A stretch of DNA of 64,000 nucleotides, taken from NCBI GenBank assembly GCA_016839815.1, contig JAEOTM010000066.1:1-64000 (forward strand), in the 5' to 3' direction. Numbering within the stretch: position 1 is the stretch's first letter; every line of letters starts with the position of its first letter. Both the position numbers and the translations under genes were made by a program. Positions 17,132-58,516 of this stretch are shown piece by piece. The stretch comes from Candidatus Hodarchaeota archaeon (GTDB lineage Archaea > Asgardarchaeota > Heimdallarchaeia > Hodarchaeales > Hodarchaeaceae). A model generated the notes under the pieces. The model saw nothing but the letters and a program-made list of their open reading frames with translations, searched no databases and was not told where the DNA came from.

Positions 17132-17737
17132 TTGACCAATTTAGATGAATTCTTTGGGGATAATCAATCCCAAAATGTCGATACGCTGATCGCTGTAACA
17201 AAAAAATTCTTTGTATTTGTGTCACAATTAGCAGAAATTGTTGATGAATTGGAACGAAAATACGCAGAACTTAGTAATAAAATCAGTCAAGTTTCTCAAC
17301 AACCTGCGGCGTCCCCTCCTCTGTCAGCTCCAACACCAAGTCCATCACCTCCTATTACTCAACCAACAGCACCATCGACTGCACCAACACCTCCAAGCAC
17401 CCCTCCACCAAGTTTACCAACACCTCCCTCATTTCCAACACCTCCATCACCAGTACAGGCTCAACCGTCTGCTTTTCCTCCTCCAATGACAGCTAATCCC
17501 TCATCAGAAACTCCTGCAGCTATACCATCACCATCGAGTCTTCCACCGCTACCTGGGCAATCTCCTGCTCCTCCTTCTCCTGGTTTAGCTCCACCATCAG
17601 TCGGTACGCCAATGGGAGGTCCACAAGCACCAGCACCTCAAGCTCGTCCTTCTCCCATGAGTTTAAAAGCCCAAATGAATATGGAACTTAAAGAAGCATT
17701 CTCAAGAATCCGCAAAGGCTGGGATGAAGAAAAATAA
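17132..17737 (+). CDS. hypothetical coiled-coil / proline-rich protein with C-terminal helix and W-acidic tail
   Basis: 201-aa ORF: N-terminal heptads, about 115 aa Pro/Ser/Thr/Ala-rich, ends SLKAQMNMELKEAFSRIRKGWDEEK. Confidence 0.75.
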   Translation: MTNLDEFFGDNQSQNVDTLIAVTKKFFVFVSQLAEIVDELERKYAELSNKISQVSQQPAASPPLSAPTPSPSPPITQPTAPSTAPTPPSTPPPSLPTPPSFPTPPSPVQAQPSAFPPPMTANPSSETPAAIPSPSSLPPLPGQSPAPPSPGLAPPSVGTPMGGPQAPAPQARPSPMSLKAQMNMELKEAFSRIRKGWDEEK

Positions 17738-50801: not shown

Positions 50802-51437
50802 TTGAATACCGAATCATCATCCAAAGACGAAACACCTCCCTCCTTATCTTTTGATATGAAAAAACCTCATTTATCTATTGAAAAACCATTTGCTTCTGAT
50901 ATCTTTGAAAATGGGTATTTTGGTAGATGGATATCGGAGAATACTCTTAGTTTAGAGCCTGAAGAAATTCTACTTCTCCTTGATAGAGGCAGGATTATTT
51001 TAGAATTGACAAATACTGGTAAAAGAATTGAGTCAGAAGAATTGGTCGTTCATTTTACATCGCTTAATCCAAATTTCTGGAGTCGATATTTAGTGTATAA
51101 AGATTTACGCAATCGAGGATATGTAGTTAGCATTGGAACACGAATAACAGCTCCATTTAGAATATACTCAAGAGGAGGAAAACCTGGAGAATCTGTTAGT
51201 AAGACGGTTATTTATCCGATCCCTGAAGGTGAAGATATTGATCTGAATCTTCTTGATCAGATTGTAAAACAATCAAAAATTGATAGAAAAACCTTATTAT
51301 TATCAGTTATTGATAGATTAGGAGATGTGACATACTACCAAGCTTCACAGTTGGAACTTGAATTCAACAATCTAGATTATGAGTTTAGAGACGAAATTTC
51401 TCCCTCTAATCTTATCGAGGAAGAGGAGGAAACATAA
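50802..51437 (+). CDS. tRNA-splicing endonuclease, probable structural (non-catalytic) subunit
   Basis: LEPEE, YLVYKDLRNRGY, D..GDVTYY; lacks the catalytic His. Confidence 0.8.
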   Translation: MNTESSSKDETPPSLSFDMKKPHLSIEKPFASDIFENGYFGRWISENTLSLEPEEILLLLDRGRIILELTNTGKRIESEELVVHFTSLNPNFWSRYLVYKDLRNRGYVVSIGTRITAPFRIYSRGGKPGESVSKTVIYPIPEGEDIDLNLLDQIVKQSKIDRKTLLLSVIDRLGDVTYYQASQLELEFNNLDYEFRDEISPSNLIEEEEET

Positions 51438-53308
51438 TGGAGAAAAGATTCAGTTTTGATACGGAGGATAATCAATTTATCCCAGATACTTCTGTGGTAA
51501 TTAATGGAGGATTAACTATTCTAATTCAAAATGATGAGGTGCAACCTGGTTCTACTCTAACCATTCCTATCGCACTTCTCGCTGAACTAGAAAATCAAGC
51601 TAATTCAGGCAGAAAAACTGGTACAATCGGTTTACAACAATTAAAATTCATTAAATCTATTTGTGAAGAAAAAGAAATTATTTTTTCTATAGGGGGAAGA
51701 AAACCCCGGCAATTTGAACTGGGGGAAATAGATACATTAATACGTGAACTAGCATGGAAGGAAGGAGGGATTCTCATCACATCTGACAAGATTCAAAATA
51801 TGAGTGCTCAATCTATGGGTGTTCAAACTATATACATTGAACCAAAGCAATTAAAGCAATATGACAAGCAATTGAAGATTGATAAATATTTTGATAGCGA
51901 AACCATGAGTATTCATATTAAACAAGGAACAAACGTGTTTGTAAAAAAAGGGAAACCAGGTGATGTTAGATTCACTCAATTCTCTTCGGAAATTATTACG
52001 AAGGAAATAATTACAGACTATGCGGATGACATTTTAGAGAAGGCGGATTTCTTTCCTGATGCATTTATTGAAATCGAAAGAAAAACTTCTACAATTGTAC
52101 AATACGAGGATAGACGGATCGTTATTACTCGCCCTCCATTCTCAGATGGGTGGGAAATTACTGCTGTTCGTCCTTTAAAAAGAATGGCATTAGAAGAATA
52201 TAGTTTGGAATCCCGACTGATTCAACGTCTTAATGATAAGGCTGAAGGGATTTTAGTGGCTGGAAGTCCAGGTGCGGGAAAAACTACTTTTACACGAGCT
52301 TTAGCGTTATATTATTATGAAATGGGAAAGATCATCAAGACCATTGAATCACCAAGAGATCTCGATTTAAAGGCAGAAATTACCCAATATTCAAAGAATT
52401 TTGGAACACACTCTGAAATTCATGATATTCTTCTATTATCAAGACCAGATTATACTATTTTTGATGAAATCCGAGATCAAGATGATTTTCGCTTGTATAC
52501 CGATTTACGTTTAGCAGGAATCGGATTAATCGGGGTTATTCATTCTAGTACTGCGATAGACGCTATACAAAGGTTTATTGGAAAATTAGATCTGGGATTA
52601 ATTCCAAGTGTCCTTGATACAATATTATATATTGATTCTGGTCAGATACAGACAATTTTAGAAGTAAAAATGACTGTAAAAGTTCCTTCAGGGTTAGTTG
52701 AGAGTGATCTCGCCCGACCAGTTGTTGAAGTGCGAGATTTCTTATCTGGCAATGTTGTATATGAAATGTACACTTTTGGAGAGCAAACTGTTGTGATACC
52801 CTTAGAGGATCCCAATTACAGTGGGAAGGAAATTAATTCCGAGCGAATAGCAGAGATAAAAGGTGTAGTAGAACAATACACAAATCAATCGGTTGAAATC
52901 GTCCCTAAAGATAGATATGGCCACCGTTATGTAATACATGCCCATGAAGAAGACATCCCCGTCGTGATTGGACAGAAAGGAATCACGATTAAAATGCTAG
53001 AACGGGTATTAAATGTAAAGCTTGATGTAAATAAATCACCTACAGCATTGAATGACTCGGGAATAGGTTACCTCAAACGTAAAAATGTATTATTTCATAA
53101 ACGAACAATTACGATTGGATTCCCTAAACGTTTCAAAAATAGAGAGATTAGTTTTTTTATCCGAGAATCAGATGGATCCCCTCCTGTTGAGTTTTTTAAT
53201 GCCACAACATCTAAATCAGGAAAAATTAAAATTGCTACCAACAGTGAAATTGGAAATATCTTTCAAAGGGTATATAGAGATGAGGAGGGGGCAATCTTCT
53301 GGAAATAG
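51437..53308 (+). CDS. PINA-type ATPase (PIN + VirB11-like ATPase + KH)
   Basis: PDTSVVI PIN, GSPGAGKTT, RPDYTIFDE, GVIH, VIGQKG KH. Confidence 0.9.
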   Translation: MEKRFSFDTEDNQFIPDTSVVINGGLTILIQNDEVQPGSTLTIPIALLAELENQANSGRKTGTIGLQQLKFIKSICEEKEIIFSIGGRKPRQFELGEIDTLIRELAWKEGGILITSDKIQNMSAQSMGVQTIYIEPKQLKQYDKQLKIDKYFDSETMSIHIKQGTNVFVKKGKPGDVRFTQFSSEIITKEIITDYADDILEKADFFPDAFIEIERKTSTIVQYEDRRIVITRPPFSDGWEITAVRPLKRMALEEYSLESRLIQRLNDKAEGILVAGSPGAGKTTFTRALALYYYEMGKIIKTIESPRDLDLKAEITQYSKNFGTHSEIHDILLLSRPDYTIFDEIRDQDDFRLYTDLRLAGIGLIGVIHSSTAIDAIQRFIGKLDLGLIPSVLDTILYIDSGQIQTILEVKMTVKVPSGLVESDLARPVVEVRDFLSGNVVYEMYTFGEQTVVIPLEDPNYSGKEINSERIAEIKGVVEQYTNQSVEIVPKDRYGHRYVIHAHEEDIPVVIGQKGITIKMLERVLNVKLDVNKSPTALNDSGIGYLKRKNVLFHKRTITIGFPKRFKNREISFFIRESDGSPPVEFFNATTSKSGKIKIATNSEIGNIFQRVYRDEEGAIFWK

Positions 53309-53375
53309 TGGTTAAATAATTCTCGTTAACTCTACATAAAAAAGTGAGGTTACTCTCTCTCCCTTGATTCAGCTC

Positions 53376-55061
53376 TTATTCTTCTTTGAAGATTTCTCTT
53401 AGACGACGTAACTCTTTGAGCATTTCCCCTCGTAACTCTGCGATGCTTGTTGATCGTGCATCGGCAATTAAGTCTAGTGGGGAATCACCTGATTGACCTG
53501 AAGGTATCACAGGTTCAGGTACAGCTACTGGAGAAGGAGTGGGAGGAACAGGACTTGCAGTCGGCATCGGAGGCGCTACAGGAGGGCTAGATGGTGGTGG
53601 AGGAGGTGATGATGGCAAACCGACTGGTTTTGACTCAATGGGTGAAGCTTTCGGAGTTGGTTTCACGGTGGGAGTTTCACCCAAAACAGAATCAAAAAGT
53701 GCCCCCACTTTATCCGCACCTGGAGAACTTGGTTTAGCTTTTCTAAGACTACCAATTTTTGTCTTATACGATTTAATTCGGCCTTCATAATGTTTTACTA
53801 GAGATTCATAAACACGAGGTCGAAATTTGTCATCTCTTACAGCCTCTTTAAACTGGTTTATCAGACTAGATTCATTTTGGCTTAAAATCTCCAAATAAGT
53901 GACCATTTCCGTGGGAGTAGTTTTAAGATCAAGAAAAGAATCGGTGGAAACATCTGCTGTCTGGAAATCCCCACTAACATCTTCCGTTTCGAAATACAAC
54001 ACCGAGGTTATGAAAATCACTGCTAGAAACGAGAAAACTGCTCCAAACATGTACATTATATCCCAAGAATAGCCCATGAATGTGTAATTCAAATTTTCTA
54101 GATTCAATAAGTCTTGTACTTCAGTAGAAGAGGCAAAAACTAGTATAAATGAAGTTAAAACCATTAGAAATCCTATCAGCAATATAAAGATCCAGATTAC
54201 TTTTAGTTTGTCTAAAACACCACTAAATTTTCTCGAACTTGAGAGAAAGGCTGCAGCTGAAAATATCAGTAAACTTCCAAAAGAATAAATTACCTGCCAT
54301 TCTGTATCTAGGAGGAAATTAGCTTCAAGAACCTCAATACTTATTAAAAGTGATATCAGCGCAAATACGATTCCGATAATAACTGCAATTAGCCATAGGA
54401 TTCTGGTACTATCAAGAAAACCGCGGAAACCGTGACTCGCTGACATTAGAAGGGGGAAAATTCCTAAAATGAGAAATATCCCTCCACCAAAGAACAGCAC
54501 ATCCCAAGCAGTACCCCCGACTAGAGGAATTGTTTCGATTAGATCATCGATATAATGTCCATAAACTAGCATAGAAAGGATTTCTAACACAATCCCCACT
54601 AATATAAGGATAAAATACACAAATTTGAGATTCCACAATCGTTCACGATCTCTAACCCCAAATAATATTGGTAAAAAGCTTACACAGAATACAATAGCAG
54701 AAAGTGTGAAGAAATCAAACCATGATGAAGCTTCTGTGTCAATCGAAGTGATAAAACCACCATAAACTAATAATGAATATGTTATACCTAAAAGACTGAT
54801 ACTGAATAAGAGTACTAAATGAGGATAAATTTTCTTAACACTTGATTTTCCTCTGGCATCCATTACTGACAAAGAAGGTAGGGCTGTTATGATTGTCAAG
54901 TAAAAGCCGAAAACAAATAAGATTTTGTAATCTAATCCCAAGAACAACCTATCTGCTGAAGCTACGCCAGAATAGTAGAGAAAACCTAGTACAATGCTAA
55001 AAATGCCAATTGCTGTTAAAGTAAGAAGTCCTCTTGAAGTTTTTACGAATGTTTCTCTCAA
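53376..55061 (-). CDS. multi-pass membrane protein with helical hairpin, polyproline tract and C-terminal helix
   Basis: About 10 TMs in aa 1-355, then coiled coil, SSPPPPPSSPPVAPPMP, terminal SIAELRGEMLKELRRLREIFKEE. Confidence 0.75.
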   Translation of the reverse strand: MRETFVKTSRGLLTLTAIGIFSIVLGFLYYSGVASADRLFLGLDYKILFVFGFYLTIITALPSLSVMDARGKSSVKKIYPHLVLLFSISLLGITYSLLVYGGFITSIDTEASSWFDFFTLSAIVFCVSFLPILFGVRDRERLWNLKFVYFILILVGIVLEILSMLVYGHYIDDLIETIPLVGGTAWDVLFFGGGIFLILGIFPLLMSASHGFRGFLDSTRILWLIAVIIGIVFALISLLISIEVLEANFLLDTEWQVIYSFGSLLIFSAAAFLSSSRKFSGVLDKLKVIWIFILLIGFLMVLTSFILVFASSTEVQDLLNLENLNYTFMGYSWDIMYMFGAVFSFLAVIFITSVLYFETEDVSGDFQTADVSTDSFLDLKTTPTEMVTYLEILSQNESSLINQFKEAVRDDKFRPRVYESLVKHYEGRIKSYKTKIGSLRKAKPSSPGADKVGALFDSVLGETPTVKPTPKASPIESKPVGLPSSPPPPPSSPPVAPPMPTASPVPPTPSPVAVPEPVIPSGQSGDSPLDLIADARSTSIAELRGEMLKELRRLREIFKEE

Positions 55062-55576
55062 AAAATAAATCTCCTTTTCACATGTCCAGATAAATCTGTT
55101 TAGGAATAGGTCTAATACCTACTAATATAAGTCTAGTCTTATTTCAAATAATTATGCAATGCCGACAAAAATTGAGTATTCCGAATATGCTCAAATATTA
55201 TTTTTCCTTCGTGAACAAATAAGGTGTTTTTATTCTTTTCTACCCTTGAGTCTAAATTGTCTTTCTGCTCCACCAGAATCTCTGACTTAATTAGTTAAAA
55301 AAAATCTACGATTCAGTAAATTGATTGAACAACGAATTAAACCCAATTAAAAGGTTTTAATCCTAAATACTATCTATCTACTAGATTTTAAAATTTCAGA
55401 CTTTTATTGTACCAAGAAAAGATCAAAAAATAACTGATAAACCCAAGAAAACTGGAGGAGAACGGTATGAGAATGCTGAACAACTCCAAAAAGACTCAAT
55501 AAGAGTCAAAAAAAAGTAATATTATCAATAAAGATATGGAATACTTAGATGGAAAAAATAAAAATCCCTTTACATA

Positions 55577-55693
55577 GCCGGGGTATTCTAGTCCGGCAGG
55601 AAGCATGCCTGGAAATAACGTGTCTAGGATTCATCCTTCAGACCATAAAGCATGTGCTCTCTGAGCTCGAGAGTTCAAATCTCTCCCCCGGCG
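55577..55693 (+). tRNA. tRNA-Ser(GGA) with 34-nt intron (55615-55648)
   Basis: GCCGGGG/CCCCGGC acceptor, CATGC-CTGGAA|intron|A-GCATG, long variable arm, G discriminator. Confidence 0.9.
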
Positions 55694-55996
55694 TTTTATT
55701 CTAATAATTTTATTGGTAATGAATCCATAACATTACAGAAAAGGCGATTAACATCTTTTTTCAGCAAAACTTTCCAAATAAATACACCCTCTAAGAAGAT
55801 AAGTCACTCTTTGTAGTTTTTAATAATTTAATATTAGTGAAAAATTGAATTGTGTCACCGTCCAGCGGGTTCGTAACCATAATATAGGGTAGTCAAACTC
55901 CTTATCAAGCAGAGGAGAATAGCAAAACAGACAACCACGTAAAGTGTTTGATGTTCAAACTATTCATTATTCAATAAGTAGTAGTAGGAATGAACT

Positions 55997-56446
55997 TTGG
56001 AATATAATCACCAATTAAGAATCGCAGGAGCTGATTGTCCAGGAAATTGGCTTGTAGCTCATGCTATAACTAAAATACGAGGAGTAGGTTATCGGCTTGC
56101 TACTCAGATTTGCCAAAAAGCTGAAATTGACCCTGAAATGCGATGTGGATTCTTAACTGAAGATGAAGTTCAACTCATCGAAGACATTATTACAAATTGC
56201 TCTGCATTCGACATCCCCACCTGGATGTTAAACCGTCAGAAAGATATTGTTTCAGGTGAAAACTTTCATATCATAAGCAATGATCTAATTGATACTATTC
56301 GTCTTGATATTGAAAGAGAAAAGAAAACACGATCTTACAGAGGAATTCGGCATTACCTAGGACTCCCTGTTCGGGGACAGAGAACAAAAACCTCTGGCCG
56401 TGGTGGAACTACTATCGGAGTATCGAAGAAAAAAGTAAAGCAATAA
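55997..56446 (+). CDS. rps13: 30S ribosomal protein S13
   Basis: IRGVG, WMLNRQKD, YRGIRH..GLPVRGQRTK. Confidence 0.97.
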   Translation: MEYNHQLRIAGADCPGNWLVAHAITKIRGVGYRLATQICQKAEIDPEMRCGFLTEDEVQLIEDIITNCSAFDIPTWMLNRQKDIVSGENFHIISNDLIDTIRLDIEREKKTRSYRGIRHYLGLPVRGQRTKTSGRGGTTIGVSKKKVKQ

Positions 56447-56447
56447 G

Positions 56448-57014
56448 GTGATAAGCATGGGAGATCCAAGAAAATTAAGGAAAAAACTTGAAGGCCCCCG
56501 CCACCCATTTAATAAAACTCGCATTGAAGAAGAAATGCAATATATGGGACGGTTCGGGCTCAGAAACAAGAAAGAGATCTGGAAAGCACAAACTGTCCTC
56601 AGAAAATATCGATCACGAGCTCGTGCCTCACTTGCTTCATCAGAGGCTCAGAGAGAGATTGAAAGGAATATCTTAGTTAAGAAGCTTTACCGGATGGGTA
56701 TTATGGCAAATGAGGCGGGATTAACTGATGATGTTTTATCTCTAAATGTTGAACAATTCTTAAAACGAAGATTACAGTCTATTGTTCATGAACTTGGTCT
56801 AGCAAATACTCCTTGGCAAGCCCGACAAATGATTTGTCATGGACATATCTCGCTAGAAGGCCGAAAAGTGACTGCACCAAGTTATCATGTGAAACGCGGT
56901 GAAGAAGAACTAATAACATATTCTCCAAGCTCTCCCTACAATGATTCTGCACATCCAGCCTTGAGTGTCCCTACTTCAAGGACTCCTAGTCCTCCCCCAT
57001 CTGAGGAACATTAA
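56448..57014 (+). CDS. rps4: 30S ribosomal protein S4
   Basis: MGDP, GLRNKKEIWK, RRLQSIV, ARQMICHGHI. Confidence 0.97.
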   Translation: MISMGDPRKLRKKLEGPRHPFNKTRIEEEMQYMGRFGLRNKKEIWKAQTVLRKYRSRARASLASSEAQREIERNILVKKLYRMGIMANEAGLTDDVLSLNVEQFLKRRLQSIVHELGLANTPWQARQMICHGHISLEGRKVTAPSYHVKRGEEELITYSPSSPYNDSAHPALSVPTSRTPSPPPSEEH

Positions 57015-57029
57015 TCTATTCAATTTAAG

Positions 57030-57443
57030 TTGGTTATAATAATGTCAAAAGCAAGTAAAAATCCTTCTACTGGAATTGCACATATTTTAAGTTCATATAA
57101 TAACACAATAATTACCTTAACTGATATGACTGGCGCTGAAACCATTGCCAAATCTTCTGGTGGACAAGTAGTTCGTGCAGATCGTAATCAATCATCTCCT
57201 TACGCTGCAATGAAAGTTGGTCACGAAATAGCTAGAGCTGCCAAAGAAAAAGGTATAAGAAAAATAGTTGTGAAGGTTAGAGCCCCTGGCGGTTCTGGAG
57301 CACGAAATCCTGGTCCAGGAGCTCAAGCAGCTATCCGTGCAATTGCACGTTCAGGTTTGCAAATAACTACCATTGAAGAAGTAACTCCCATTCCTCACGA
57401 TAGTACACGACAACGTGGTGGAAGAAGAGGCCGTCGTGTATAG
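57030..57443 (+). CDS. rps11: 30S ribosomal protein S11
   Basis: [34 protein letters not shown]. Confidence 0.97.
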
Positions 57444-57541
57444 ATCCAAATAAGGCCACGAAGAAAAATTTTGGCTTTAAGTCTCCTAATAAAGTATTAG
57501 GGTTTTCTGTATTGACTTTTGCTATCAAAGTAATTTAGAAG

Positions 57542-58516
57542 TCAGATTTCTTTCCATGAAGAGGGGTATGTTCCTTTTTCCATAAAAACTGCAATAGGTT
57601 TTGCACAAATTCCATTTTTCAACTCTGAGATCTTTTTACTTGTTAAAACACTTCTCCCAAAAGCTACTAATTCTCCTTTCATTGAAAGAATGGCGAGTAA
57701 AGAATTTTTATCAACATTTTTAGTAAATTGAACTACTCCTGGAAGCGTAAGCTGGGCACCATGACATATAGCATCAACTGCTGAATCACGAATGTAAATC
57801 TTAGGTAGATGTACGCAAATAGCTTCAATTGGTTGAATTATCTCCCTTATTTGTGACTCATCTCCCCCTTCATTATAGTAATACCATGCATCAGCTAAAT
57901 CATGTAAAGTCTTACACTTCTTCACATCGAATGGTCCAGTTTGTGTACGTCTTAATTCATGCATATGCGCCCCAGTTCCCAAAATCAATCCAATATCATG
58001 ACAAAGCTTTCGAATGTAAGTTCCTGCTTCGCACTTTATTCTTAATAATGAAAACTGTGAATCTAAATGTTCAATTAATTCAAGTGCATATATTTTTCTA
58101 ACCCGTAATTGTCTTTTAACATTACTTCTTACAGGAGGTGTTTGATAGATTTTCCCACGGAAGATCTGAAGGATGTCTTCTACCTCATTCTGTGATTTAG
58201 CTTCATGAAGTTTCATAATACAGATATATTCTTTTCCTGCAGGCAATAAAACTTGAAGCGATCTAGTAGCGCGACCCAGAGCTATAGGTAAACATCCTGT
58301 GACAGCAGGATCAAGTGTACCCCCATGTCCAGCTCTTTTGATTCCTAAAATTTGTTTAACCCATGCTGTGACTTCATGAGAAGTAGGATTTGCTGGTTTG
58401 TCAAGATTTATAATCCCTAGATTTAAAAGCTCTGAAATACTACGTTTTTCTGGAGATAAACCATAATCAGGATTGGTGTGATAATTTTGTACCTTTACAA
58501 AAAAAGGGGAAGTCAT
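57542..58516 (-). CDS. cbf5: H/ACA pseudouridine synthase Cbf5
   Basis: LDKP..PTSHEV, GHGGTLDP, GTYIRKLC, PUA domain. Confidence 0.96.
   Translation of the reverse strand: MTSPFFVKVQNYHTNPDYGLSPEKRSISELLNLGIINLDKPANPTSHEVTAWVKQILGIKRAGHGGTLDPAVTGCLPIALGRATRSLQVLLPAGKEYICIMKLHEAKSQNEVEDILQIFRGKIYQTPPVRSNVKRQLRVRKIYALELIEHLDSQFSLLRIKCEAGTYIRKLCHDIGLILGTGAHMHELRRTQTGPFDVKKCKTLHDLADAWYYYNEGGDESQIREIIQPIEAICVHLPKIYIRDSAVDAICHGAQLTLPGVVQFTKNVDKNSLLAILSMKGELVAFGRSVLTSKKISELKNGICAKPIAVFMEKGTYPSSWKEI

What the first reader, a model, noticed from the sequence alone, without database searches (positions are those of the whole stretch)
53376..55061. Membrane-anchored polyproline adaptor with repeated TM hairpins and a MIM1-like tail
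Seen: about 10 TMs built from five repeats of a two-helix unit (second helix starts LDYKILFVFG / SWFDFFTLS / AWDVLFFGG / EWQVIYSFG / SWDIMYMFG). These are followed by a helical hairpin (INQFKEAVRDDKFRPRVYESLVKHYEGRI), a PPPPP-containing tract and a terminal helix EMLKELRRLREIF. Inference: the hairpin recalls CdvA-like/steadiness-box helices, and the tail resembles the ESCRT-III MIM1 motif (CHMP1B ELSQRLARLRD, from memory). Alternatively the polyproline could recruit profilin-actin. Either way it looks like a membrane tether for ESCRT/Vps4 or the cytoskeleton, sharing the Pro-rich + terminal helix design of the 17132 protein.
Basis: partly seen in the sequence, partly recalled or inferred. Interest (0 to 1): 0.7.

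Follow-up and report, generated by a model that had tools for sequence, protein, structure and literature searches.

The report
Asgard membrane anchor with docking helix
This Hodarchaeales (Asgard archaeon) gene encodes a ten-helix membrane protein that holds out, inside the cell, an ESCRT-I/CdvA-type helical hairpin, a floppy proline-rich arm and an almost invariant end helix that many other Asgard proteins also carry; it looks like a membrane tether for a very conserved partner, most likely the ESCRT machinery, but the partner has not been shown.

Summary
Window 53379-55061 (minus strand) is a real 561-aa gene. It has ten TM helices made of five homologous two-helix units (N-in, C-in), then a cytoplasmic helical hairpin, an 85-aa linker (31% Pro) and a 35-aa terminal helix.

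- **Terminal helix:** its protein sequence is invariant in 20 genomes of the genus, although every codon but Met varies synonymously.
- **Wider distribution:** its core (LRxEMLKELxRLK) recurs in 260 of 400 Asgard genomes, on single-pass anchors, soluble coiled-coil proteins and a small GTPase.
- **Hairpin:** it is homologous to the steadiness-box hairpin of Asgard Vps23-like proteins and to the OST1 (ribophorin I) cytoplasmic hairpins. Its nearest folds are Vps23-C, OST1 and CdvA.
- **Synteny:** the gene is a positional orthologue of single-TM versions in Heimdallarchaeaceae.
- **Known motifs:** the helix is not a recognisable WH2 and matches MIM1 only partly.

No partner is shown, and one complex prediction gave no verdict.

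My best reading (about 0.4) is a CdvA-like membrane tether for ESCRT. The rivals are actin/profilin, ribosome/translocon, or another partner.

The scan had already met orthologues of this family on other genomes, with the same open question.

The parts
53379..55061 (-). Whole coding sequence, 561 aa (stop codon at 53376-53378). TTG start with GGAG at 55071-55074.
   Evidence: About 40 full-length orthologues, all from Hodarchaeales/Heimdall-group sources. Only 29 representatives among 1.84 billion proteins.
53982..55061 (-). Membrane domain, residues 1-360: ten TM helices as five homologous two-helix units. Unit boundaries lie near residues 70, 140, 212 and 280. Each even helix is preceded by an outside W-D type motif.
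   Evidence: Hydropathy and positive-inside rule. hhalign of the units against reversed controls. AF2 pLDDT 80-95. No structural analogue, TM-score below 0.3. No Atlas look-alike. Stand-alone paralogues without a tail exist. Only G19 and W186 are invariant in the wider family.
53739..53915 (-). Cytoplasmic helical hairpin, residues 383-441, of the steadiness-box / CdvA / OST1-C type. Carries the invariant stretch QFKEAVRxDKFRPRVYE.
   Evidence: AF2 pLDDT 93-97. Profile hit to PDB 8WHN, E 1.4e-5. Tandem profile hits in the C-terminal part of 27 of 29 distinct Asgard OST1 frames (30 rows, one duplicated). hhalign 94% to Asgard Vps23_core-like proteins and 93% to OST1-C. VIA Z 9.8 / 9.1 / 8.8 to Vps23-C / OST1 / CdvA.
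53484..53738 (-). Disordered Pro-rich arm, residues 442-526 (31% Pro, one PPPPP run). Includes a short conserved helix near residues 452-459.
   Evidence: AF2 pLDDT below 50. Composition and length are conserved but the sequence is not.
53379..53483 (-). Terminal docking helix, residues 527-561. Core STSIAELRGEMLKELRRLREIF.
   Evidence: Near-identical in 28 orthologues: 34 of the last 36 alignment columns are invariant. 34 of 35 codons keep their residue while carrying 2-6 synonymous codons across 20 genomes. The same helix is kept in distant 10-TM relatives. It is found in 260 of 400 Asgard genomes on other architectures.

Best explanation
The protein is a membrane-anchored adaptor. A ten-helix anchor built from five repeated TM hairpins, specific to Hodarchaeales, has been joined to a cytoplasmic module that is much older and found across the Asgard phylum. 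That module has three parts: a steadiness-box/CdvA-type helical hairpin, a flexible Pro-rich arm of about 85 aa, and an amphipathic end helix under extreme purifying selection.

Inferred mechanism:
1. The hairpin pairs with like hairpins, either its own or those of ESCRT-I proteins such as the genome's Vps28.
2. The arm lets the end helix reach tens of nanometres from the membrane.
3. The helix docks a highly conserved soluble partner.

The most likely partner is the ESCRT machinery, that is the Vps4 MIT domain or another ESCRT subunit. The protein would then play the part that CdvA plays in TACK archaea (hairpin, linker, C-terminal ESCRT-docking motif), a tether that is reported missing from Asgard archaea.

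Shown: the anatomy, the topology by the positive-inside rule, the repeats, the selection on the helix, its modular spread, the hairpin homology and the synteny. Inferred: every binding step and the identity of the partner.
For: Anatomy and topology.

Selection on the helix:
- The protein is invariant while synonymous sites are saturated in 20 genomes.
- The helix is near-identical in relatives whose TM part is only about 17-22% identical.

The helix is a module:
- It hits 260 of 400 Asgard genomes.
- It sits at the C-terminus of single-TM + hairpin proteins and soluble coiled-coil proteins. In a Ras/Roc-like GTPase (about 100 residues from its end) and in a Sec23/24-like protein it is internal.
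- It occurs as three tandem copies in P0067.

The cytoplasmic module is the conserved unit:
- In Heimdallarchaeaceae the single-TM version lies at the same syntenic spot, beside the KH/PIN ATPase and EndA pair.
- The ten-TM domain also exists alone, without a tail.
- The ten-TM domain has almost no invariant polar residues.

The hairpin belongs to the SB/CdvA kind:
- hhalign 94%, E 1.2e-7, to Asgard proteins that match Pfam Vps23_core.
- Sub-threshold Pfam hits to Vps23_core in 3 of 22 members and to CdvA in 1.
- Best structural matches are Vps23-C, TSG101-type chains, OST1 and CdvA.
- SB and CdvA hairpins are reported as related (PMC10936438).

Likeness of the helix to ESCRT-III tails: Asgard ESCRT-III proteins end in helices such as SELEKEIKKLKE, and this genome's ESCRT-IIIB ends in ELQKELEKIKK. 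These share the pattern E-hydrophobic-x-K-E-hydrophobic-x-basic-hydrophobic-basic with EMLKELRRLRE.

Genomic and literature context: the genome encodes Vps4 with a MIT domain, two ESCRT-III proteins and Vps28. The literature states that Asgard archaea have no CdvA homologue to tether the machinery (PMC8970359).
Against: - The likeness to ESCRT-III tails is weak when measured. This genome's ESCRT-IIIB C-terminus scores -1.2 bits and ranks 47 of 3836 against the tail profile. These are low-complexity K/E/L helices.
- The eukaryotic MIM1 consensus is met only at the hydrophobic and last basic positions.
- In five complete genomes the carrier genes are not linked to Vps4 or ESCRT genes. The one partial exception is G116, where a carrier lies about 10 kb from ESCRT-III genes.
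- MIT is present in families where the helix was not detected (f24 7 of 7; the three unlisted families taken together, f31 among them, 78 of 89), so the phyletic pattern does not support coupling.
- The hairpin kind is generic. It is equally close to the OST1 cytoplasmic hairpins. Helical-hairpin Z scores of 9-10 are within the range of common arrangements.
- P0001 itself has no Pfam hit to Vps23_core or CdvA.
Confidence: 0.4

Rival explanations
1. It is an actin-assembly or actin-tethering factor. The Pro-rich arm recruits profilin-actin, and the end helix binds actin (a WH2/GAB-like amphipathic helix in the barbed-end cleft). This would be a membrane-anchored counterpart of Ena/VASP or WASP-type regulators.
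For: - The layout of a Pro-rich tract followed by an amphipathic helix starting ..DARSTSIAELR.. resembles WAVE-type WH2 (my recollection only).
- Some relatives carry repeated PPPPPG tracts like FH1 regions (P0061 and L029).
- P0067 has three tandem copies of the helix, as tandem-WH2 nucleators do.
- A near-invariant ligand fits a near-invariant partner: actin is 96-100% identical within the genus.
- Heimdall and Thor profilins bind polyproline weakly (PMC8410842).
- Actin nucleation machinery is said to be still undiscovered in Asgard archaea (PMC9433394).
Against: - Pfam WH2 does not match the protein or the isolated 42-aa tail even at E up to 10.
- A tail-profile search of all PDB sequences finds no WH2 protein.
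- The helix is about 30 residues long and continuous, with no extended LKKT-type segment.
- The polyproline run is not conserved in orthologues, where the longest run is 3-5.
- Carriers with Pro-rich arms also occur in f19, the family of the two complete genomes that I take, from their sizes alone, to be the cultured Loki strains MK-D1 and L. ossiferum. The Loki and Odin profilins that were tested did not bind polyproline (PMC8410842).
- Actin is present in lineages where the helix is not detected.
- There is no tight gene linkage to actin.
Confidence: 0.2
2. It is a ribosome- or translocon-associated membrane protein. The hairpin works like the cytoplasmic domain of OST1/ribophorin I, which contacts ribosomes. 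The gene's fixed place among ribosomal-protein operons would reflect that role.
For: - The only significant PDB sequence hit of the hairpin profile is 8WHN, the MK-D1 OST1 cytoplasmic domain (E 1.4e-5, two tandem matches).
- The same profile hits the C-terminal domain of 27 of 29 distinct Asgard OST1 frames. hhalign gives 93% and VIA gives Z 9.1.
- That domain pulls down eukaryotic ribosomes in vitro (PMC11417166).
- The gene lies between S13-S4-S11 and EndA/PIN-ATPase/L3-L4-L23-L2 in orthologues of 38-44% identity, with glycosyltransferase and OST3/6-like genes a few kb away.
Against: - OST1 uses two hairpins as a four-helix bundle, and this protein has one.
- The hairpin kind is shared with ESCRT-I-like proteins and CdvA, so it is not specific to OST1.
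- This genome's own OST1 scores only weakly against the profile.
- The neighbouring ribosomal-protein genes are divergently or convergently transcribed, not co-transcribed.
- This reading does not explain the docking helix on soluble carriers.
Confidence: 0.1
3. The end helix docks a different partner, one not yet considered. Candidates are a small-GTPase/longin-roadblock module, a coat or trafficking component, or the helix of another copy (self-assembly into bundles). The ten-TM domain may also have a function of its own that the tail regulates.
For: - The helix occurs on a Ras/Roc-like GTPase and inside a Sec23/24-like protein, which points to a general trafficking hub.
- All faces of the helix are conserved, as expected for a buried helix or one with several partners.
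- Stand-alone ten-TM paralogues exist, which implies that the membrane domain does something by itself.
- No test here singled out ESCRT or actin.
Against: - No positive evidence exists for any particular alternative.
- In the AF2 model, structural alignments never joined the tail helix to the hairpin.
- The membrane domain has almost no conserved polar residues.
Confidence: 0.3

Closest known systems
CdvA of TACK archaea (CdvA_alpha hairpin, linker, then C-terminal BWI or MIM2 motif; PMC8970359, PMC10936438; PDB 9s9g)
   Same: - A helical hairpin of the same kind (VIA Z 8.8, rmsd 2.2 over 68 residues; Pfam CdvA E 1.2e-4 in one relative).
- A flexible linker follows.
- A short conserved docking motif sits at the very C-terminus.
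- Both are associated with the membrane.
   Different: - There is no PRC barrel.
- The membrane contact is through integral TM helices, not peripheral binding.
- The linker is Pro-rich.
- The end motif is a 30-residue amphipathic helix, not the BWI peptide or a Pro-rich MIM2.
- No Pfam-level membership.
- The partner is unknown.
ESCRT-I steadiness-box proteins (Vps23/TSG101, Vps28, Vps37) and Asgard Vps23_core-like proteins
   Same: - Hairpin profile similarity: hhalign 94%, E 1.2e-7.
- The best structural matches are Vps23-C (2f6m, 2f66) and the human ESCRT-I headpiece (6vme).
   Different: - No UEV domain or stalk.
- Membrane-embedded.
- Carries a terminal docking helix.
- The protein itself has no Pfam Vps23_core hit.
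- The gene lies outside the ESCRT gene cluster.
Cytoplasmic domain of Asgard OST1 / ribophorin I (PDB 8WHN, PMC11417166)
   Same: - It is the only significant PDB sequence match of the hairpin profile (E 1.4e-5).
- It shares the G-x-I-S...Y..L...Y hairpin signature.
- It lies directly after a TM segment on the cytoplasmic side.
   Different: - OST1 has two tandem hairpins that form a four-helix bundle, and it has no Pro arm or end helix.
- This protein has one hairpin.
- This protein has no luminal ribophorin domain.
MIM1 tails of ESCRT-III Vps2/24/46-class proteins read by the Vps4 MIT domain (PMC7240154)
   Same: - An amphipathic helix at the extreme C-terminus, after a flexible linker.
- The hydrophobic positions and the final basic residue of the consensus fit.
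- It resembles Asgard ESCRT-III end helices.
   Different: - The central Arg of the consensus is Glu, and the leading acidic position is not kept.
- The helix is about twice as long.
- The measured similarity to this genome's ESCRT-IIIB tail is weak (rank 47 of 3836).
- It is attached to proteins that are not ESCRT-III.
Pro-rich region plus WH2/GAB helix of WASP/WAVE/Ena-VASP (Pfam PF02205)
   Same: The order of a Pro-rich tract and then an amphipathic helix. Tandem copies occur in one relative.
   Different: - No WH2 profile match.
- No LKKT-type extended segment.
- The Pro runs are not conserved.

Membership tests
WH2 domain (Pfam PF02205) | Sequence match to the WH2 profile: a short amphipathic helix followed by an LKKT/V-type segment. 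| tested here: not met
   hmmscan found no WH2 match at E up to 10 for the whole protein, for residues 370-561 or for the 42-aa tail. The tail-profile search of PDB sequences returned no WH2 protein. The model shows one continuous 30-residue helix.
WH2 domain (Pfam PF02205) | Binds G-actin in the cleft between subdomains 1 and 3. | not testable with these tools
   Needs a binding assay or a structure.
MIM1 (type-1 MIT-interacting motif) | An amphipathic helix at the extreme C-terminus behind a flexible linker. | tested here: met
   The helix spans residues 531-560 of 561 and follows 85 disordered residues.
MIM1 (type-1 MIT-interacting motif) | Consensus (D/E)xxLxxRLxxL(K/R). | tested here: inconclusive
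   RGEMLKELRRLR fits at M, L, L and the final R. It has Glu in place of the central Arg and no leading acidic residue. Asgard ESCRT-III tails share the Glu/Lys pattern. The PSSM score of this genome's ESCRT-IIIB tail is -1.2 bits, rank 47 of 3836.
MIM1 (type-1 MIT-interacting motif) | Binds the MIT domain of Vps4. | not testable with these tools
   Needs a peptide binding assay with the cognate MIT domain (Vps4 residues 1-80; G000 C135:21436-21675).
Steadiness-box / CdvA helical hairpin (Pfam PF09454 Vps23_core, PF18822 CdvA) | An antiparallel two-helix hairpin of about 60 residues. | tested here: met
   AF2 hairpin 383-441 has pLDDT 93-97. VIA gives Z 9.8 (rmsd 1.8 over 63 of 63) to Vps23-C and Z 8.8 to CdvA. 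Foldseek probability is 0.99-1.00 to ESCRT-I headpiece chains.
Steadiness-box / CdvA helical hairpin (Pfam PF09454 Vps23_core, PF18822 CdvA) | Profile-level sequence relationship to bona fide members. | tested here: met
   hhalign of the hairpin alignment A5 against Asgard proteins that match Vps23_core: 94%, E 1.2e-7. The reversed control gave E 0.09.
Steadiness-box / CdvA helical hairpin (Pfam PF09454 Vps23_core, PF18822 CdvA) | Reaches the Pfam gathering score. | tested here: not met
   There are only sub-threshold hits in relatives: Vps23_core in 3 of 22 (best E 0.0037) and CdvA in 1 of 22 (E 1.2e-4, 20 bits against a cut-off of 30). There are none for this protein.
Steadiness-box / CdvA helical hairpin (Pfam PF09454 Vps23_core, PF18822 CdvA) | Assembles with other hairpins (ESCRT-I headpiece) or polymerises (CdvA). 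| not testable with these tools
   Needs co-expression, pull-down or a structure with Vps28 (G000 C135:25659-26213) or with itself.
OST1 / ribophorin I cytoplasmic domain | Sequence relationship of the hairpin unit. | tested here: met
   Profile against PDB: 8WHN at E 1.4e-5. 27 of 29 distinct Asgard OST1 frames are hit in their C-terminal part. hhalign 93%.
OST1 / ribophorin I cytoplasmic domain | Two tandem hairpins forming a four-helix bundle behind a luminal ribophorin domain. | tested here: not met
   The protein has one hairpin only and no Ribophorin_I match.

The most novel reading that the evidence does not exclude
The terminal helix is a phylum-wide recruitment signal of Asgard archaea, and this protein with its single-pass orthologues is the long-missing membrane tether. 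It would be a functional replacement of CdvA that brings ESCRT-III/Vps4 to the membrane. Alternatively it would be the first Asgard factor that brings actin assembly there. Either way, one short helix would wire membrane anchors, coiled-coil proteins and small GTPases to a single conserved machine.
Probability: 0.35. Interest if true: 0.85.

Novelty: new variant of a known kind. Interest (0 to 1): 0.6.

Why it matters
[quoted passage not shown] Two questions are stated as open in the literature:
- How their ESCRT machinery is tethered to membranes, given that they have no CdvA homologue (PMC8970359).
- What nucleates or positions their actin; the machinery is "yet to be discovered" (PMC9433394).

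This family offers a concrete, testable candidate for one of them. It gives a 35-residue peptide under near-absolute selection, displayed from the membrane on a flexible arm and shared by several protein architectures in most Asgard lineages. Identifying its partner needs only peptide pull-downs.

The five-fold repeated ten-TM domain also has no structural or sequence relative in the libraries searched.

Tried and rejected
- **Complex prediction.** It returned no answer: score 0.22, below the mark of 0.32, and the controls were not run. This is neither support nor evidence against. Actin, profilin, Vps28 and ESCRT-II could therefore not be tried.
- **Family and structure searches on the whole protein.** Pfam and NCBIfam gave only chance-level hits, such as the OAR motif at E 0.33. 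Foldseek against PDB and the Atlas structure search gave nothing above TM 0.3 for the membrane domain. The Atlas feature search scored at most 0.77.
- **Profilin.** Pfam Profilin found no gene in this genome, but that search rang nowhere, so it shows nothing.
- **Gene linkage.** In five complete genomes the carrier genes showed no tight linkage to Vps4, ESCRT-III or actin.
- **Phyletic pattern.** MIT is present in 374 of 400 genomes, and actin is present in lineages that lack the helix. Neither discriminates.
- **Conservation within the genus.** Actin (96-100%), the Vps4 MIT domain and the ESCRT-IIIB end helix are all conserved there, so this does not discriminate either.
- **Gene conversion or recent ancestry as the cause of tail identity.** Rejected, because synonymous sites are saturated.
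- **Tail helix packing on the hairpin.** No structural alignment of the cytoplasmic model spanned both elements. This was only indirectly tested.
- **Hairpin profile against this genome.** Only this gene is significant. Several weak G-x-I-[ST]..Y hairpins appear, so the motif is widespread and generic.
Full report
**1. The gene**

Window 53379-55061 on the minus strand is one open frame of 561 codons, with the stop at 53376-53378. It begins with TTG, and GGAG lies 9 nt upstream. Orthologues begin at the same residue with M or L. The genome is a Hodarchaeales (Heimdall-group Asgard) assembly, judging by the names on close homologues and by its gene content: actin, Vps4, two ESCRT-III proteins and Vps28.

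The family is small. About 40 clusters were found in 5.8 billion proteins, and 29 representatives in 1.84 billion. All are unnamed and none carries a Pfam family. Pfam and NCBIfam give nothing for the protein.

**2. The membrane domain**

- **Topology.** Hydropathy gives ten TM segments. The loops alternate between K/R-rich (3, 4, 4, 2, 4) and acidic, K/R-poor (2, 0, 0, 0, 0). By the positive-inside rule both ends are cytoplasmic.
- **Repeats.** The ten helices form five two-helix units. Sub-alignments of the units match each other in register with hhalign E from 1e-5 to 2e-11. The same profiles reversed give at best 1.5e-3.
- **Fold.** AF2 models the domain with pLDDT 80-95. Neither Foldseek on PDB, nor the Atlas structure search, nor the Atlas feature search finds a relative.
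- **Stand-alone copies.** The domain also exists alone. A 378-aa paralogue without any tail lies on contig C168, and similar proteins of 370-383 aa occur elsewhere.
- **Conserved residues.** Across the wider family only G19 and W186 are invariant, and no polar TM residue is conserved. This fits an anchor or scaffold better than an enzyme or transporter, but the domain's own function is unknown.

**3. The cytoplasmic part**

Folded alone with an alignment of 26 relatives, it shows three parts:
- a very confident helical hairpin, residues 383-441, pLDDT 93-97
- a disordered stretch, residues 442-527
- a terminal helix, residues 531-560, pLDDT 78-86

Mean pairwise identity among 28 orthologues is 51% in the membrane domain, 68% in the hairpin, 42% in the linker and 99% in the last 35 residues. 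The linker keeps its length (82-103 aa) and Pro content (26-38%). It does not keep its sequence or the PPPPP run, whose longest length varies from 3 to 5.

**4. The terminal helix is under extreme selection and is a module**

- **Selection.** In 20 genomes of the genus, 34 of 35 residues are identical. Every codon except Met occurs as 2-6 synonymous codons, and mean DNA identity is 0.80. So the identity is due to purifying selection, not to recent ancestry or gene conversion.
- **Distant relatives.** Ten-TM relatives whose membrane part is only 17-22% identical keep ARSTSIAELRGEMLKELRRLRDIFKE almost unchanged.
- **Phylum-wide spread.** A profile of the helix hits 260 of 400 Asgard genomes at E up to 0.01.
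  - A: ten-TM proteins, in Hodarchaeales
  - B: single-TM proteins with the same hairpin, a coiled stretch and a Pro arm, in Heimdallarchaeaceae and other families
  - C: soluble proteins of 220-260 aa with an N-terminal coil and a Pro arm, in a Loki-type family (f19), an Odin-sized genome (f27) and several unnamed families
  - D: a Ras/Roc-like GTPase
  - E: one Sec23/24-like protein, where the match is internal and may be chance
- **Tandem copies.** P0067 has three tandem copies.
- **Core motif.** The phylum-wide core is [ST]-[IL]-x-x-L-R-x-E-M-L-K-E-L-x-R-L-K-x-[ILF]-[MF].
- **This genome.** Only one other protein carries it, a 261-aa protein on contig C20.

**5. The ten-TM and single-TM forms are positional orthologues**

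Orthologues of 38-44% identity keep the same neighbours. S13-S4-S11 lies on one side. The KH/PIN ATPase, the tRNA-splicing endonuclease and L3-L4-L23-L2 lie on the other. In Heimdallarchaeaceae the single-TM carrier lies at the same spot, next to RpiA, the PIN ATPase and EndA.

The conserved unit is therefore the module of hairpin, arm and helix. Hodarchaeales have fused it to a ten-TM domain that also exists separately.

**6. What the hairpin is**

- **Sequence.** A profile of the hairpins of forms A and B gives one significant hit among all PDB sequences. That hit is 8WHN, the cytoplasmic domain of OST1/ribophorin I of Ca. Prometheoarchaeum syntrophicum MK-D1 (E 1.4e-5, matched twice in tandem). 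The profile also hits the C-terminal cytoplasmic part of 27 of 29 distinct Asgard OST1 frames, twice in nearly all of them.
- **Profile-profile.** Against Asgard proteins that match Pfam Vps23_core (the steadiness box), hhalign gives 94%, E 1.2e-7. Against OST1-C it gives 93%, E 3.2e-7. OST1-C against the Vps23-like set gives 90%. Reversed controls give E of 0.09 or more.
- **Structure.** The best matches of the model are Vps23-C (Z 9.8, rmsd 1.8 over 63 of 63), human ESCRT-I headpiece chains, OST1 (Z 9.1) and the S. islandicus CdvA filament (Z 8.8). Such Z values are not decisive for a helical hairpin.
- **Pfam.** Hits are sub-threshold only: Vps23_core in 3 of 22 members, CdvA in 1 and SHOCT in 1.

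I conclude that the hairpin belongs to this broad SB/CdvA/OST1-C hairpin kind, which is an association module.

**7. What the helix binds is not shown**

*ESCRT reading.* Asgard ESCRT-III proteins end in helices such as SELEKEIKKLKE, and this genome's ESCRT-IIIB ends in ELQKELEKIKK. These share a pattern with EMLKELRRLRE. Such helices are taken to be MIM1-like ligands of the Vps4 MIT domain (PMC7240154). The design of hairpin, linker and C-terminal ESCRT-docking motif is that of CdvA (PMC8970359), and that paper says Asgard archaea have no CdvA homologue for tethering. When measured, however, the similarity is weak: this genome's ESCRT-IIIB tail ranks 47 of 3836 C-termini at -1.2 bits.

*Actin reading.* The order of Pro arm then amphipathic helix, the FH1-like PPPPPG repeats in some relatives and the tandem copies in P0067 all fit. 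But there is no WH2 profile match, and the Pro runs are not conserved.

*Ribosome/translocon reading.* This rests on the OST1 hairpin, whose parent domain pulls down ribosomes (PMC11417166), and on the ribosomal-protein neighbourhood.

Gene linkage, phyletic patterns and genus-level conservation do not discriminate between these readings. The details of what was tried without result are under Tried and rejected.

**8. Verdict**

Odds for the partner:
- ESCRT (Vps4 or another subunit): 0.4
- actin/profilin: 0.2
- ribosome/translocon: 0.1
- something else, or self-association: 0.3

Earlier agents of this scan examined orthologues and sister architectures in other genomes and reached the same open end.

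- the synonymous-site test
- the positional orthology of the ten-TM and single-TM forms
- the stand-alone ten-TM paralogues
- the profile-level link of the hairpin to both the OST1 cytoplasmic domain and Asgard Vps23-like steadiness boxes
- a measured, and weak, value for the likeness to ESCRT-III tails

Noticed in passing
window 55577-55693 (+): An intron-containing tRNA of 117 nt (Rfam tRNA 41.5 bits, E 3e-7) lies between this gene and the S13 gene. ARAGORN missed it. By eye the anticodon loop reads GGA (Ser).
   Followed up: partly
window 17132-17734 (+): A 201-aa protein with an N-terminal helix, about 130 aa of Pro-rich sequence and a terminal helix (..LKAQMNMELKEAFSRIRK..). It has no Pfam family. 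Its layout matches the soluble carriers, but its helix does not match the docking-helix profile (rank 160 of 3836).
   Followed up: partly
own genome G000 C20:22077-22859 (+) (L175:1078-1860): This genome's second carrier of the docking helix, 261 aa: a small N-terminal domain, an acidic and Pro-rich arm, then ..ATGIAILRKQMLTELKKIRSV... It has no Pfam family and is conserved in every genome of the genus. It lies about 13 kb from the actin gene here and about 25 kb from it in a complete relative.
   Followed up: partly
own genome G000 C168:32412-33548 (+) (L176): A stand-alone paralogue of the ten-TM repeat domain (27% identity, tblastn E 7e-31) with no cytoplasmic tail. It lies next to a winged-helix regulator gene.
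   Followed up: partly
P0067 (344 aa, metagenomic), residues 10-127: Three tandem copies of the docking helix, spaced 43 residues apart, at the N-terminus of a soluble helical protein. Its origin and context were not examined.
   Followed up: no
L056:271-1461 (-) and L052:365-2008 (-): In a Ras/Roc-like small GTPase (L056) the helix core follows PPPP tracts about 100 residues from the C-terminus, ahead of a Cys-rich end. It also occurs inside a protein with a Sec23/24 trunk and beta-sandwich (L052).
   Followed up: partly
window 50802-58516 and loci L139, L140: A conserved gene order holds in orthologues of 38-44% identity: EndA, KH/PIN ATPase, this gene, tRNA, S13-S4-S11, Cbf5. A glycosyltransferase and an OST3/6-thioredoxin gene lie a few kb away.
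   Followed up: partly
G116:C1:2271544-2287500: In this complete Asgard genome the soluble carrier of the helix lies about 10 kb from two ESCRT-III genes. No such proximity was seen in four other complete genomes.
   Followed up: no
Asgard OST1 frames, loci L109-L138: The cytoplasmic domain of Asgard OST1 and the steadiness box of Asgard Vps23-like proteins match each other at profile level (hhalign 90%, E 1.7e-6). I did not find this link stated in the papers read.
   Followed up: partly
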